From a virus (Duplodnaviria > Heunggongvirae > Uroviricota > Caudoviricetes), in the IMG/VR virus record IMGVR_UViG_2713896799_000009, positions 1 to 37,500 of that record: a stretch of 37,500 nt of DNA; one strand, written 5' to 3'. Made by a program: the position numbers and the translations under genes. Shown in pieces: positions 22,900-32,968 of this stretch (positions are counted from its first letter, which is position 1; every line of letters begins with the position of its first letter). Below the pieces are notes generated by a model that saw only the letters and a program-made list of their open reading frames with translations, was not told where the DNA came from and made no database searches.

Positions 22900-22974
<75 letters not shown>

Positions 22975-22977
22975 ATA

Positions 22978-23053
<76 letters not shown>

Positions 23054-23055
23054 AC

Positions 23056-23132
23056 TGGACCGCCACCGGGGACTCGAACCTCGCACACTCAACTTAAAGG
23101 GTTGACGCTCTTTCCTGATGAGCTAGTGGCGG
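23056..23132 (-). tRNA. tRNA-like element (anticodon-position TTT, Lys-like), possibly a pseudo-tRNA
   Basis: Acceptor CCGCCAC/GTGGCGG, T-loop TTCGAGT, encoded CCA; but C at position 33 and a mismatch in the T-stem. Confidence 0.35.
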
Positions 23133-23133
23133 T

Positions 23134-23209
23134 TGGTGGCCCTTGCTGGATTTGAACCAGCGACCTGGCGATTATGAGTCGCTCGCTCTCACCACTGAGC
23201 TAAAGGGCC
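23134..23209 (-). tRNA. ileZ: tRNA-Ile2 (CAT anticodon, ileX/ileZ-like; tools often label it tRNA-Met)
   Basis: GGCCCTTTAGCTCAGTGGTGAGAGC...CTCATAA...GGTTCAAATCCAGCAAGGGCCACCA is near-identical to E. coli tRNA-Ile2. Confidence 0.8.
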
Positions 23210-27219: not shown

Positions 27220-27375
27220 TTACTCCTCAGGTTCGTAAGCTGTGAAGACAGCGACCTCCGTCTGGCCGGTTCGGATTCGTACCTCGCAGAGGTCTTTCCT
27301 CGTTACCAGTGCCGTCACTATGACGGTTAAACAGATGACGATCAGGGCGATTAACATCGCCTTTTGCTGCTTCAT
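27220..27375 (-). CDS. hokD: Hok/Gef-family type I toxin (HokD/RelF-like)
   Basis: MKQQKAMLIALIVICLTVIVTALVTRKDLCEVRIRTGQTEVAVFTAYEPEE matches RelF/HokD as recalled; an in-frame upstream extension to 27432 corresponds to a mok-like frame. Confidence 0.85.
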   Translation of the reverse strand: MKQQKAMLIALIVICLTVIVTALVTRKDLCEVRIRTGQTEVAVFTAYEPEE

Positions 27376-27999
27376 AGCCTGCTTCTCCTTGCCTTTCGGC
27401 ACGTAAGAGGCTAACCTAGATTTGCCGTTCATAGATTGAGCCTCAGATTAATGTTAAGCGTCTTGTAGGACGCGTAATGTTAACTGGGGCTTTTCTCTAT
27501 CTGCCTTTGGTGTTCATGCCTGAGACAGATAGCCTCAAGCACCCGCAGCCATTCTACTTAACTCCCGTTACCTCGCCAATATAAAATCAATCAGAAAGGC
27601 GATCCATAAGAACAACAGCAAGACAATAAATTGCCATTACAGCTGCAATAGCCAGCGCACATTTGAGAACCAGCACGACAACCTCCTGTATTGGACGTAC
27701 ACCAGTCCTGATAAATATGAGGCTGTCTCATCATTGATGAGATACAACTATTGGGTATAGTTTCTGTGATTTTGTTCTGTAGAAATGGAACACAACAACC
27801 AGTCACCACCAGCACTTCTTTAAATACGCCAAGTCCGACGCAAGCTAACCTTCTAGTCCGCTTTGAGCGAAAAGCAGACTGTCACGCGTTGAAGTTAATT
27901 GTATTACTTAGATAAACACTATCATTTTCCTGACGTTAAGTTGTATCTTTGATAGGATTAAAAAACGTATAGATAGCTTATGCTACTGAGGGAATAAAA

Positions 28000-28809
28000 A
28001 TGACGAAAATTAGTGAACGATGGAAGCACAATGGCATTACTGAAGGTTATTGCAATATTTGTGGGAAATATGGCTTGCTCACAAAAGATCATGTTCCTCC
28101 AAAGTGCGCCATAACCTTAGGCCCTGTTTTGCAGAAAACAGTTAGCGAATTTTTTGGTATTCAGGAACCAGTTAAACCATTAAATGCTAAAAATGGCTCT
28201 TATTTCAGAACCATTTGCAGCCACTGTAACAATAAGGTATTAGGTGGGCTCGATGTTGCAATTGAAAATGTAACAAAGTCCTTTAAAGAACAGTTAAGTC
28301 GATATATGAATGGTATGAATGTATATCCATTCATTAGAATACCTTTTGATAGCATATCTTTCACTAAGGCTATGATTGGGCACGTGCTATCAGCAACTTC
28401 AGTTGAAGATTGTAAAAAAGAACCCGTAGATAGCCCCTTCTATACACCTTTAAAGGATTATGTTTTGGGTAAAAATTCAAGTTTTGAGGAAACTCATGAT
28501 ATTTACTACTGGTTTTACCCACACAGAATGCACATATCCGCTCAAAGTGTAGCATTTATGAACGAAGGACATGTGGCATTTATTTGTGCTTTACATTTTT
28601 TTCCTATCGGTTTTATTATCACAATGAAAAATGAAGGAACATACCCTGCCCACTCTACAAAATTAGAACTTGAAGATAAATTCCTTACATTTAATATGAC
28701 CTCTATAAATTATGAGTATACGACATTTCCATTTGTAAATCTTAAGGGAAACCAAATGTATGCGATAAGCAACGGTCATACTTGTGTGAGTTATCCAATA
28801 ATTAAGTGA
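28000..28809 (+). CDS. Hypothetical protein with N-terminal HNH-like nuclease motif and an unrecognised C-terminal domain
   Basis: 269 aa; GAGGGAA ribosome-binding site; motif C-x2-C...DH-VPPK...N...C-x-H-C-N-N-K in the first 80 aa; about 190 aa of C-terminus without recognisable similarity; AT-rich gene and promoter region unlike the flanking DNA. Confidence 0.6.
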   Translation: MTKISERWKHNGITEGYCNICGKYGLLTKDHVPPKCAITLGPVLQKTVSEFFGIQEPVKPLNAKNGSYFRTICSHCNNKVLGGLDVAIENVTKSFKEQLSRYMNGMNVYPFIRIPFDSISFTKAMIGHVLSATSVEDCKKEPVDSPFYTPLKDYVLGKNSSFEETHDIYYWFYPHRMHISAQSVAFMNEGHVAFICALHFFPIGFIITMKNEGTYPAHSTKLELEDKFLTFNMTSINYEYTTFPFVNLKGNQMYAISNGHTCVSYPIIK

Positions 28810-28955: not shown

Positions 28956-29378
28956 TCACTTCAATAAATACCGAACATCACCCTGATAAAACGACAATAT
29001 GCGCTGCATAACTTCACTCTTCCGGCACTCGCGACAGATTATGTTCTGACGCCTGTCGTAGCGACGTATTTCTCCGTCAGGTAATGACCAGATAAGGTCC
29101 GGATCAACCGCAGATGGTTTCTTCAGCTTTGCCCTTGAGAGCTTTTTACGGGCATTTTGCCAGTCCTTACGCGCCTGTTCAGACGGGAATAACCCGTAAC
29201 CAGAGTTGTATACATCGCCGCTGGCAACCAGCTCTCTTGCGAGAACGCTCATCAGATATCTTGTCGCACCTGTCTTGACTTCCAGTTGCCGTAACGTCTC
29301 ACGCCCACTCTGGCGTACGAGTTCAACAACCTGTCCTTTAATTTTTTCCCGCTCTTCTTGTGTAAAAACTTTTGCCAC
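28956..29378 (-). CDS. Hypothetical replication-region protein
   Basis: 140 aa, basic, with C-terminal CRECRK motif; directly downstream of the O-like gene; not recognised. Confidence 0.45.
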   Translation of the reverse strand: MAKVFTQEEREKIKGQVVELVRQSGRETLRQLEVKTGATRYLMSVLARELVASGDVYNSGYGLFPSEQARKDWQNARKKLSRAKLKKPSAVDPDLIWSLPDGEIRRYDRRQNIICRECRKSEVMQRILSFYQGDVRYLLK

Positions 29379-29418
29379 AAGCCCTCCTGAAAATTACCTC
29401 ATGACCAGAAATTAACAC

Positions 29419-30495
29419 TTACCCCCTGAAGCCCGGCGGAATTTCGTTATCCGGTTCAGAAATATGATTCACACAACGCTGGTTGTTCGTGCCGCTTACC
29501 GGGAGCAACCAGGGGTTCTCAAAATTCCGGTCCGGTCCAAAAAACGTCGTCGCTCGCTGAACAAATTCCGTTCCCGTTTTCCCGGTAGCCGCCAAGTATC
29601 TTGCGTAACGCCTCACGCCATCCAGCATGGCTTCTGGTGGCACCCCCTCGCGTAATCTGGCCTTCCAGGCACTGAAAGCGGATTTCTTCGGGTTTGCTCC
29701 GGCACGCAACGGGTACTCCCGCCAGACCTGTTCGAACACATCCGGATAATCCACTCGTCCCACAGACTGCCCGGTGTTTTCCGGGACTACCCGATCGGCT
29801 TCCCGCTGAATGGCGGAATCGGCTTCGGGCTGCTGCAGTTGGTGTGATTGCTCCGGCCTTGCGGTCATCACCTGCTGCACAGCGCCCGAATCGGCTTTCA
29901 GCGCATACGCTGAATCGGCTTCCGGTGTCGTGCCTGCTGGCTGACCAAGATTGACGGTCTGAACATCCCCTGCCTGGTTCGTGGCGTTTTTTACGCCATG
30001 GACCATAGTGTTTTGATCTTCTTGATCTGTATCTTTATCTGTATCTTTATCTGTCGTGACTCGTCGTGACATGTGCGTGACATTTCGTGACGCGCCGTGA
30101 CAATCGCCATTTTGTTCCCGCTTTCTTTCCCTCTCTCGCTGCGCCCTCTTGCGCTCTGCAGGAGATTTTGCGGTTTGCGAAATATTGCCGTTGTCCTCTT
30201 TAAGCACCTGGCGTTTTTCCCATCCAGTGATTAAATCACCATCAAGTACCCGCCCCTGCATCGTCTGCAAAATTGAATCAATTACCTCTTCTGTCACGTC
30301 GAGCGCACTTGCCAAATCTTCTGTCGTGACATCAATGTGACCTCGCGTGACATTTCGTGACGCGCTCACCAGGAGGTGGATATACACTGCCATCACTGTT
30401 GCAATTGGCTGCCCTGACACTCTGGCAATTGTTCGCCACTTAGGGTCATTTGGCATGTCATGCCATAATCTGAGCCAGGCGTTAGCCATACTCAC
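29419..30495 (-). CDS. Putative replication initiator (lambda O-like) containing the origin iterons
   Basis: 358 aa; lies where O sits in a lambdoid early-right operon; contains two clusters of helically phased CGTGAC repeats and an AT-rich repeat block; the protein shows matching ASRNVT repeats. Confidence 0.6.
   Translation of the reverse strand: MSMANAWLRLWHDMPNDPKWRTIARVSGQPIATVMAVYIHLLVSASRNVTRGHIDVTTEDLASALDVTEEVIDSILQTMQGRVLDGDLITGWEKRQVLKEDNGNISQTAKSPAERKRAQRERERKREQNGDCHGASRNVTHMSRRVTTDKDTDKDTDQEDQNTMVHGVKNATNQAGDVQTVNLGQPAGTTPEADSAYALKADSGAVQQVMTARPEQSHQLQQPEADSAIQREADRVVPENTGQSVGRVDYPDVFEQVWREYPLRAGANPKKSAFSAWKARLREGVPPEAMLDGVRRYARYLAATGKTGTEFVQRATTFFGPDRNFENPWLLPVSGTNNQRCVNHISEPDNEIPPGFRG
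30015..30361. repeat. Putative replication origin: iteron clusters and AT-rich direct repeats inside the O-like gene
   Basis: CGTGAC five times at about 10-11 bp spacing (30055-30101) and four times (30325-30361); identical 21-mer GCGTGACATTTCGTGACGCGC at 30075-30095 and 30345-30365; AT-rich TCTGTATCTTTATC repeats at 30015-30054. Confidence 0.6.
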
Positions 30496-32910: not shown

Positions 32911-32968
32911 TTTCTGGTGACGTTTGGCGGTATCAGTTTTACTCCGTGACTGCTCTGCCGCCCTTTTT
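32911..32968 (+). ncRNA. dicF: DicF small regulatory RNA
   Basis: TTTCTGGTGACGTTTGGCGGTATCAGTTTTACTCCGTGACTGCTCTGCCGCCCTTTTT matches the E. coli DicF sequence as recalled, including the 3' terminator hairpin; located between ydfC and dicB. Confidence 0.75.

What the first reader, a model, noticed from the sequence alone, without database searches (positions are those of the whole stretch)
30015..30361. Helically phased CGTGAC iterons in two clusters inside the O-like gene
CGTGAC recurs five times and then four times at 10-11 bp spacing, with an identical 21-mer in each cluster and an adjacent AT-rich repeat block. This is the arrangement of lambda ori inside O, but with a different iteron sequence and a 270-bp split between clusters. 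It is strong sequence-level support for this gene being the initiator and defines the phage origin.
Basis: seen in the sequence. Interest (0 to 1): 0.45.

Follow-up and report, generated by a model that had tools for sequence, protein, structure and literature searches.

The report
Split iteron origin inside phage initiator gene
The repeated CGTGAC motifs are real and are selected as DNA rather than as protein code. They most likely form the replication origin of a common E. coli prophage type, built like the phage lambda origin but with a new short repeat and an extra, conserved second repeat cluster.

Summary
There is no experimental evidence.

**The repeats.** CGTGAC occurs 5 times at 30055-30101, spaced 10, 11, 10 and 10 bp. 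It occurs 3 times exactly, plus one TGTGAC in phase, at 30325-30361. Both clusters lie in a minus-strand gene (29419-30489) for a winged-helix "replisome organizer" initiator. An AT-rich block (30015-30054) follows the first cluster.

**Not a protein repeat.** The motif falls in all three codon phases.

**Selected as DNA.** In 23 homologues from different genera, synonymous third positions are frozen inside the repeats (0.18 bits) and free outside them (1.33 bits; p = 3e-6).

**Conserved architecture.** 39 of 52 species-level loci carry the same two-cluster layout, against 0 of 336 flank control windows. Subfamilies switch the hexamer (GTCACG, GTAACG, CGAACG) in both clusters together. An unrelated N-domain family uses AAGGGGCTT in the same layout.

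**Relation to lambda.** The protein is not a lambda O homologue. The repeat is a 6-bp asymmetric core, one per helical turn. The window encodes no helicase loader.

**Verdict.** New variant of a known kind. I found no description of this origin in the searched literature.

The parts
29419..30489 (-). Initiator ('replisome organizer') gene. The listed ORF starts at GTG 30495, but homologues start at MAN..., so the likely start is ATG 30489.
   Evidence: ORF listing. phrog_3729 'replication initiation protein', E = 5.5e-258 over the full length. Homologue alignment. The phage Tritos and Evi annotations give a 1071-nt CDS.
30325..30361 (-). Iteron cluster A. GTCACG on the coding strand at + strand positions 30356-61, 30346-51 and 30325-30, plus the degenerate GTCACA at 30336-41. 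It encodes ASRNVTRGHIDVT, the loop between helix 1 and helix 2 of the winged-helix domain.
   Evidence: Conserved in position and phase in most homologues. Synonymous sites are frozen.
30293..30298 (+). Single inverted copy of the hexamer, 32 nt downstream of the last cluster A copy. It lies in the codons for ALDVTE.
   Evidence: An inverted copy at the same relative place (gene nt about 180-198) is present in many GTCACG-family loci.
30102..30324 (-). 223-bp spacer between the clusters. It encodes helices 2 and 3 and the wing of the winged-helix domain, plus a long basic helix (AERKRAQRERERKRE).
   Evidence: Structure model. Inter-cluster distances in homologues run from 157 to 271 bp (one outlier at 340), and 209-247 bp within the GTCACG family.
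30055..30101 (-). Iteron cluster B. Five GTCACG copies on the coding strand, spaced 10, 10, 11 and 10 bp in the direction of the gene. It encodes CHGASRNVTHMSRRVT in the disordered linker. This is the proposed core origin array.
   Evidence: Conserved as 2-5 copies in homologues.
30015..30054 (.). AT-rich block of three 12-nt units and two GATC sites. It encodes DKDTDKDTDQED. This is the proposed DNA-unwinding element.
   Evidence: In most of the 53 genes analysed, the lowest-GC 40-mer lies directly after cluster B, typically as (GATAAA)n or (GATACA)n, even in genes of 65-69% GC.
29975..30005 (.). Inverted repeat with 13-nt arms and a 5-nt loop, flanking the AT-rich block on the far side. Whether it belongs to the origin is uncertain.
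   Evidence: Conservation in homologues was not tested.
29422..29493 (-). C-terminal tail QRCVNHISEPDNEIPPGFRG. It matches the C-terminal tail of E. coli DnaT and is a candidate hook to the host primosome or helicase-loading machinery.
   Evidence: 6aep, 2ru8, 9zbt. The same tail occurs on homologues with other C-domains.

Best explanation
The region is an iteron-type replication origin embedded in the gene of the initiator that reads it.

**Inferred mechanism**
1. The N-terminal winged-helix domain of the 356-aa 'replisome organizer' binds the 6-bp core GTCACG. The copies are direct repeats about one helical turn apart (mean 10.2 bp), so the proteins line up on one face of the DNA.
2. Cluster B (5 sites), together with the adjacent AT-rich, purine-skewed (GATAAA/GATACA)n block, forms the core origin. 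An oligomer on cluster B destabilises the AT-rich block.
3. Cluster A (3-4 sites, 223 bp upstream, inside the DNA that codes for the winged-helix domain) is bound by the same protein. It acts as a second anchor, looping or wrapping the intervening DNA, or as a control site.
4. The variable C-terminal half recruits the helicase. In relatives this would go through a lambda-P-like, DnaC-like or DnaB-like gene that follows the initiator. In this window no such gene follows, so recruitment would be direct, possibly through a tail shared with the host protein DnaT.

**Shown versus inferred.** The sequence anatomy, the DNA-level selection, the concerted change of both clusters and the winged-helix fold are shown. 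Binding, unwinding, looping and helicase recruitment are inferred.
For: 1. The motif is phased at 10-11 bp and read in all three codon phases, so it is not a peptide repeat. It exceeds all 4000 shuffles and is unique in the window.
2. The conserved peptides SR, VT and (C/G)H are the same hexamer read in three frames.
3. In 23 homologues from different genera, third-position entropy at codons with a conserved amino acid is 0.18 bits inside the repeats (n = 11) and 1.33 bits outside (n = 51). Mann-Whitney p = 2.8e-6.
4. 39 of 52 species-level loci have at least 2 clusters and at least 5 phased copies of one hexamer in the first 650 nt of the gene. None of 336 flank control windows does.
5. Spacing in the GTCACG family is 10 bp 86 times and 11 bp 24 times, out of 115 short spacings.
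6. Subfamilies use GTCACG, GTAACG or CGAACG(C), always the same hexamer in both clusters. An unrelated N-domain family uses AAGGGGCTT at 11-bp spacing, again in two clusters; this is L002 and L003, the latter being Shigella phage 75/02.
7. The lowest-GC 40-mer of the gene follows cluster B in most loci, even in high-GC hosts.
9. Downstream genes in relatives are lambda-P-like in about 24 loci and DnaC-like in 4. Pfam adds DnaB-type helicase matches in 4 of 48.
10. Module-exchange breakpoints fall in the AT-rich block, so the N-domain and its repeats move as one unit.
11. Phage Tritos forms plaques and carries a 100% identical origin region with the same gene order (PMC9928086).
Against: - There is no experimental binding, footprint or origin-activity evidence for this module. 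I found none in the searched literature.
- Cluster A lies inside the DNA that codes for the N-domain, so its co-inheritance with that domain is physically forced and does not independently show who binds it.
- The N-domain match to Phage_rep_org_N is below Pfam's cut-off (E = 0.016).
- No IHF site and no excess of DnaA boxes occur at the locus.
- 13 of 52 loci lack a detectable phased array.
- The role of cluster A, whether origin component or regulator, is not resolved.
Confidence: 0.8

Rival explanations
1. Only cluster B plus the AT-rich block is the origin. Cluster A, with its inverted copy, is a control element bound by the same initiator. It would act by autoregulatory roadblock of the initiator's own transcription, or by titration or handcuffing, as incA does relative to incC in plasmid P1. 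It would be dispensable for initiation.
For: - Cluster A is 223 bp from the AT-rich block, whereas cluster B abuts it.
- A conserved inverted copy follows cluster A, giving a head-to-head arrangement typical of operators.
- Some loci keep cluster B only (L040, L054).
- In L003, cluster B is inverted relative to cluster A, so a fixed relative orientation is not needed.
- Two iteron clusters with divided roles are established in plasmid P1 (incC and incA). This last point rests on my own knowledge and was not checked here.
Against: - Cluster A is kept in 39 of 52 loci and in an unrelated N-domain family. That is a strong constraint for a purely regulatory accessory of a phage that replicates lytically.
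- L008 keeps only cluster A as a phased array.
- No computation here can separate the two roles.
Confidence: 0.3
2. The repeats are binding sites for a protein other than the encoded initiator. Candidates are a host factor, the neighbouring YdaT/CII-like or Cro-like regulator, or a partition or packaging protein.
For: No direct evidence shows which protein binds. The repeats lie in an early operon next to regulators.
Against: - Hosts range from Enterobacterales to Burkholderiales, Pseudomonas, sphingomonads and Acidobacteria. The hexamer differs between loci from related hosts, for example Pseudomonas L012 and L028 (GTCACG) versus L034 (CGAACG). A host factor is therefore unlikely.
- Downstream genes vary widely, and the window, L001 and L002 have different neighbours. 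The initiator gene is the query-defined constant of every locus, and no other gene was seen to recur in all of them.
- No second cluster exists elsewhere in the window, as a packaging or partition system might require.
Confidence: 0.05
3. The repeats are a by-product of a repetitive or conserved protein sequence, or they are an element of the mRNA rather than of the DNA.
For: The 21-mer duplication encodes ASRNVT twice in the same frame, 270 bp or 90 codons apart. The amino acids encoded by the repeats are invariant in the family.
Against: - The period is 10-11 bp and not a multiple of 3, and all three codon phases are used.
- Three different conserved dipeptides are explained by one hexamer.
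- Synonymous positions are frozen only inside the hexamers.
- Shuffles that keep the protein sequence do not reproduce the array.
- No Rfam family matches the region.
- A true codon-level repeat does exist nearby for contrast: AATCGGCTT four times, in frame.
- One-turn spacing fits double-stranded DNA rather than RNA.
Confidence: 0.02

Closest known systems
ori-lambda inside gene O of phage lambda (and other lambdoid O/ori modules)
   Same: - The origin lies inside the initiator gene, at the junction between the DNA-binding N-terminal part and the partner-binding C-terminal part.
- The repeats are followed by an AT-rich unwinding region in the direction of transcription (PMC6022878).
- The N-domain and its repeats move as one exchangeable module.
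- Many relatives are followed by a lambda-P-like gene.
- The gene sits at the same place in a lambdoid early operon.
   Different: - There is no detectable sequence homology to O; Pfam gives no Phage_rep_O match.
- Lambda has four 18-bp inverted-repeat iterons, each bound by an O dimer (PMC6022878). Here the core is a 6-bp asymmetric sequence repeated directly, once per helical turn.
- A second, conserved cluster lies 223 bp upstream, inside the DNA that codes for the DNA-binding domain.
- No P gene is present in this window.
Replisome organizers of Firmicute phages (SPP1 G38P with oriL; Pfam Phage_rep_org_N)
   Same: - The initiator has no AAA+ domain.
- The origin is embedded in the initiator's own gene and consists of repeats ('AB boxes') next to an AT-rich unwinding element. 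G38P also binds a second site, oriR (PMC5737612).
- The window N-domain aligns over the full length of Phage_rep_org_N (positions 1-119 of 121), though below threshold. It also matches PHROG 'replisome organizer' families.
- NCBI names close homologues 'phage replisome organizer'.
   Different: - The Pfam match is sub-threshold (15.6 bits against a 23.3 cut-off).
- SPP1's second site is described as a separate, distant region of the genome (PMC5737612; about 32 kb away by my recollection, not checked). It is not a cluster within the same gene.
- SPP1 encodes its own loader and helicase (G39P, G40P). This window encodes neither.
Two-cluster iteron systems of plasmids and satellite phages (P1 incC/incA; P4 ori/crr). 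From my own knowledge, not tested here.
   Same: One initiator reads two separated arrays of short direct repeats. One array abuts the unwinding region and the other acts at a distance through looping or pairing.
   Different: - The proteins are unrelated.
- Those arrays flank the initiator gene or lie kilobases from it. They are not written through its coding sequence in three frames.
DnaD N-terminal winged-helix domain (Bacillus and Geobacillus)
   Different: Sequence identity is only 9-10%. The fold is generic, and the DnaD N-domain is chiefly an oligomerisation module. Homology is not established.

Membership tests
Lambda-type origin (ori within O) | Initiator homologous to lambda O (Pfam Phage_rep_O N-terminal domain) | tested here: not met
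   Pfam scans at E <= 0.01 and at E <= 10 give no Phage_rep_O match.
Lambda-type origin (ori within O) | Iterons located inside the initiator's coding sequence | tested here: met
   Both clusters lie within 29419-30489 on the minus strand.
Lambda-type origin (ori within O) | Iterons of about 18 bp with dyad symmetry, each bound by an initiator dimer | tested here: not met
   Only a 6-bp asymmetric core is conserved and flanking positions are weakly conserved. The copies are direct repeats at 10-11 bp. The lambda anatomy is taken from PMC6022878.
Lambda-type origin (ori within O) | AT-rich unwinding region next to the iterons, downstream in the direction of transcription | tested here: met
   30015-54 has GC 0.25-0.33. 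The feature is conserved in most loci.
Lambda-type origin (ori within O) | P-type helicase-loader gene immediately downstream | tested here: not met
   The next gene in the window is a DUF977 gene, as in phages Tritos and Evi. The feature is met in about 24 relatives.
Lambda-type origin (ori within O) | Initiator binding to the iterons, and origin activity | not testable with these tools
   This needs EMSA or footprinting and an origin-plasmid assay.
Phage replisome organizer (Pfam Phage_rep_org_N, PF09681) | N-terminal domain scores above the family's gathering threshold | tested here: inconclusive
   E = 0.016 and 15.6 bits against a cut-off of 23.3, but the match covers profile positions 1-119 of 121. 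PHROG replisome-organizer families match at 4e-6 and 2e-4.
Phage replisome organizer (Pfam Phage_rep_org_N, PF09681) | Origin (repeats plus AT-rich unwinding element) embedded in the organizer gene | tested here: met
   The SPP1 oriL anatomy is taken from PMC5737612.
PHROG 3729 'replication initiation protein' | Full-length match to the family profile | tested here: met
   E = 5.5e-258, protein residues 3-358 against profile positions 1-356 of 356.
Winged-helix DNA-binding domains | H1-(strand)-H2-H3-hairpin topology | tested here: met

The most novel reading that the evidence does not exclude
This would be a previously undescribed, very widespread class of phage origin in which the binding site and its reader are written on top of each other.

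- One hexamer, read in all three frames, dictates invariant residues of the initiator.
- The only residues that differ consistently between the GTCACG and CGAACG specificity subfamilies are those in the loop encoded by cluster A.
- The iteron array might therefore encode the very loop that determines which iteron is read. A change of iteron would then change reader and site together.
- The two arrays would cooperate by looping about 220 bp of DNA to open the AT-rich block.
- Helicase recruitment would bypass a phage loader by mimicking the tail of the host protein DnaT.
Probability: 0.15. Interest if true: 0.8.

Novelty: new variant of a known kind. Interest (0 to 1): 0.55.

Why it matters
- The module is very common. 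The gene is found in 1647 of 5426 complete E. coli genomes at 80% coverage or more. The N-domain family extends to Pseudomonas, Bordetella, Ralstonia and Aeromonas phages. RefSeq nonetheless mostly labels the gene 'hypothetical protein'.
- The papers that classify Stx-phage replication modules (Eru types) do not mention its origin.
- Defining the origin gives a testable minimal replicon for these prophages.
- It explains why a handful of residues in the initiator are invariant: they are DNA sites.
- It gives a clean natural example of dual coding, with a direct statistical signature.
- It offers a family in which iteron specificity has switched several times, which is useful for dissecting recognition.
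- The absence of a loader, together with the DnaT-like tail, suggests a route of helicase recruitment different from the lambda O-P paradigm.

Tried and rejected
1. **Literature.** The two Eru papers on Stx-phage replication regions contain no mention of iterons or origins for these modules. Searches for Rac oriJ and for 'GTCACG' together with 'iteron' found nothing relevant.
2. **Viral-contig scan.** A scan with the N-domain alignment returned only 80 copies whose N-domain protein is 100% identical, which was uninformative for divergence.
3. **Host-factor sites.** The IHF consensus is absent from the locus and DnaA boxes are not enriched.
4. **Helical phasing between the clusters.** Inter-cluster distances cluster near 209, 219, 229, 239 and 247 bp. 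Gain or loss of an edge repeat shifts the distance by 10-11 bp by itself, so I do not count this as evidence of phasing.
5. **Pfam.** It gave no significant family for the initiator.
6. **DnaT tail.** I could not establish from the preprimosome paper what the extreme DnaT tail contacts. The tail remains a lead only.
7. **RNA element.** No Rfam family matches the region.
8. **Promoter-like match.** One consensus match lies inside cluster B (30077-30104, 9 of 12 positions). It is at chance level and I did not interpret it.

Full report
**1. What is in the sequence**

On the + strand, CGTGAC occurs at 30055, 30065, 30076, 30086 and 30096, spaced 10, 11, 10 and 10 bp. It occurs again at 30325, 30346 and 30356, with a one-mismatch copy (TGTGAC) at the phased position 30336. 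A single inverted copy lies at 30293-30298. The 21-mer GCGTGACATTTCGTGACGCGC occurs only at 30075 and 30345.

Next to the five-copy cluster lies an AT-rich block at 30015-30054. It holds three 12-nt units and has GC 0.25-0.33, against 0.54 for the gene.

All of this lies inside one minus-strand ORF, 29419-30495. Homologues and the phage annotations indicate that the true start is the ATG at 30489.

A chain of five copies at 10-11 bp spacing was never reached in 2000 shuffles that keep the protein sequence (maximum 4, seen 4 times), nor in 2000 codon-order shuffles (maximum 3). It is the only chain of three or more anywhere in the window. Outside the gene the hexamer is at background frequency.

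**2. It is not a protein repeat**

The period of 10-11 bp is not a multiple of three. The copies fall in codon phases 0, 2, 0, 2, 1 in one cluster and 0, 1, 0, 2 in the other.

In an alignment of 22 homologues, later extended to 70, the invariant peptides of this part of the protein are SR, VT and (C/G)H. They appear as 'SRNVTRGHxDVT' and 'CHxESRxVT'. These are the three possible translations of GTCACG.

A genuine codon-level repeat sits 150-250 bp away for contrast. AATCGGCTT occurs four times, spaced 24, 72 and 24 bp, always in frame, and encodes EADS(A/G).

**3. Selection acts on the DNA**

A species-dereplicated scan of bacterial genomes returned 56 loci that encode a relative of the N-terminal domain. 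They include Enterobacterales, Pseudomonas, Bordetella, Chromobacterium, Stenotrophomonas, sphingomonads and Acidobacteria assemblies.

I built a codon alignment of 23 GTCACG-type genes from different genera and looked at codons whose amino acid is conserved. Their third positions have a mean entropy of 0.18 bits inside the hexamers (n = 11) and 1.33 bits outside (n = 51). Mann-Whitney p = 2.8e-6. Valine is always GTC and threonine nearly always ACG inside the repeats, whereas the same amino acids elsewhere use all four codons.

**4. The architecture is conserved and the two clusters change together**

A de novo search looked for any hexamer phased at 10-11 bp. It found at least two clusters and at least five copies in the first 650 nt of 39 of 52 genes, and in none of 336 control windows from the flanks. 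In the GTCACG family, 110 of 115 short spacings are 10 or 11 bp.

More distant subfamilies carry GTAACG or CGAACG(C) instead, always the same hexamer in both clusters.

A different N-terminal domain is joined to the same C-terminal half in E. coli ERL06-2497 (L002) and in Shigella phage 75/02 Stx (L003, the 'Eru4' type of PMC8951638). It carries AAGGGGCTT at 11-bp spacing, again in three frames and again as two clusters about 245 bp apart. In phage 75/02 the second cluster is inverted.

In most loci the lowest-GC 40-mer of the gene lies directly after the second cluster. It usually reads (GATAAA)n or (GATACA)n, even in genes of 65-69% GC where such codons are disfavoured. The conserved 'DKDKDK' peptide is therefore best read as the coding shadow of an AT-rich element.

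**5. What the gene is**

The protein matches phrog_3729 'replication initiation protein' over its full length (E = 5.5e-258) and, more weakly, families labelled replisome organizer and DnaD-like helicase loader. Pfam gives nothing significant. There is no Phage_rep_O match, and Phage_rep_org_N aligns end to end but below threshold (E = 0.016).

Cluster A encodes the loop between helix 1 and helix 2 of this domain. That loop tolerates insertions in homologues, and the insertions add further hexamers (L001, L005, L030). Cluster B encodes the disordered linker.

In relatives the next gene is lambda-P-like in about 24 loci and DnaC-like in 4. Pfam adds DnaB-type helicase matches in 4 of 48. This is the pattern expected downstream of an origin-binding initiator.

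Homology breakpoints between mosaic relatives fall in the AT-rich block, at window positions of about 30014-30032. The N-domain, both clusters and the AT-rich block therefore travel as one module, and the C-terminal half travels as another.

**6. Context in the window**

The window is a Rac-like lambdoid prophage. It carries an integrase, a RecE-like exonuclease, a RacR-like repressor, YdaS-like and YdaT/CII-like genes, the initiator, a DUF977 gene, RusA, Q, and lysis and structural genes. No loader or helicase gene follows the initiator.

The same order is found in phages Tritos and Evi. Tritos carries a 100% identical origin region, and it was isolated as a plaque-former and propagated on MG1655 (PMC9928086). 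The module therefore works in a viable phage. Close copies of the gene are present in 1647 of 5426 complete E. coli genomes.

**7. How it most likely works**

The anatomy, the DNA-level constraint, the concerted iteron switches, the winged-helix fold and the loader genes in relatives are shown. The following steps are inferred.
1. The N-domain binds GTCACG as a head-to-tail array on one face of the helix.
2. The array on cluster B destabilises the adjacent AT-rich block.
3. Cluster A is a second anchor for the same oligomer, looping or wrapping the DNA, or it is a control site.
4. The C-terminal half brings in the helicase.

For step 4 the only lead in this window is that the last 24 residues (QRCVNHISEPDNEIPPGFRG) match the C-terminal tail of E. 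coli DnaT. The same tail recurs on homologues with other C-domains. I could not establish what that tail contacts.

**8. Comparison with known systems**

The origin works like ori-lambda. Both have repeats inside the initiator gene at the domain junction, an AT-rich region on the downstream side, and N-domain and repeats exchanged as a unit. Lambda has four 18-bp inverted-repeat iterons bound by dimers and a 39-bp AT-rich region (PMC6022878).

It is not a member of the lambda O family by sequence. It differs in iteron type (a 6-bp asymmetric core, once per turn), in having a second conserved cluster, and in lacking P here.

By weak sequence similarity and by naming it is nearer the replisome organizers of Firmicute phages. 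SPP1 G38P likewise binds repeats next to an unwinding element inside its own gene, and binds a second, distant site as well (PMC5737612).

Two-cluster plasmid systems (P1 incC/incA, P4 ori/crr) are functional analogies from my own knowledge. I did not test them here.

**9. Novelty and verdict**

I found no description of this origin, its iterons or its split layout in the searchable literature. Subscription journals are not covered.

It is a new variant of a known kind: an iteron origin inside an initiator gene. What adds interest is the three-frame dual coding, the conserved split into two arrays, the repeated switches of iteron sequence, and the absence of a loader.

An intriguing but weakly supported reading concerns the loop encoded by cluster A. 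The only residues that differ consistently between the GTCACG and CGAACG subfamilies lie in that loop, so the array might encode its own specificity determinant. This observation is confounded, because those residues are dictated by the iteron sequence itself.

Noticed in passing
window 29422-29493 (minus strand): The last 24 residues of the initiator (QRCVNHISEPDNEIPPGFRG) match the extreme C-terminus of E. coli DnaT (PDB 6aep, 2ru8, 9zbt). The same tail ends several homologues that have otherwise different C-domains. Among the genome loci it never co-occurs with a lambda-P-like downstream gene.
   Followed up: partly
window 28956-29418, and phages Tritos (L060) and Evi (L061): No helicase loader or helicase gene follows the initiator; the next gene is a DUF977 gene. 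Relatives with the same C-terminal half (L002, L003) have a DnaC-like gene there. Phage Tritos forms plaques and has the loader-less order.
   Followed up: partly
window 29794-29925: AATCGGCTT occurs four times, spaced 24, 72 and 24 bp, always in frame, and encodes (P)EADS(A/G) in the linker of the C-terminal half. It is also present in L002 and L003. It looks like a true peptide-level repeat of unknown role.
   Followed up: no
window 29975-30005: An inverted repeat with 13-nt arms and a 5-nt loop lies directly beside the AT-rich block, on the side away from the iterons. Its conservation was not examined.
   Followed up: no
window 30015 and 30024: Two GATC (Dam) sites lie 9 bp apart inside the AT-rich block. 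GATC also recurs in the AT-rich block of several enterobacterial homologues.
   Followed up: no
window 28000-28809 (+ strand): An opposite-strand ORF of 269 aa with low GC (0.35) sits between the replication genes and the hok/sok region. It has Cys-rich CxxC motifs, matches phrog_21495 (unknown function) and has no Pfam match. It looks like a moron or a possible defence gene.
   Followed up: no
window 27370-27544; 32912-32963; 22900-23209: The window carries a sok antitoxin RNA (hok/sok locus), the DicF sRNA, and a cluster of four tRNA genes: Gly-TCC, Thr-TGT, Lys-TTT and Met-CAT.
   Followed up: no
L045 and L058 (Serratia and Pantoea loci): Here the same N-terminal winged-helix domain is fused to a longer protein with a GIY-YIG-like segment (YVYYV...GIS.NPW.R). 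No phased hexamer array is detectable in these genes.
   Followed up: no
L001, L005 and L030, cluster A loop: Insertions in the loop encoded by cluster A (for example TTCHGVSL in L001 and L005, and a roughly 30-residue insertion in L030) consist of further in-phase hexamer copies. The array seems to grow by duplication inside a surface loop that tolerates it.
   Followed up: partly
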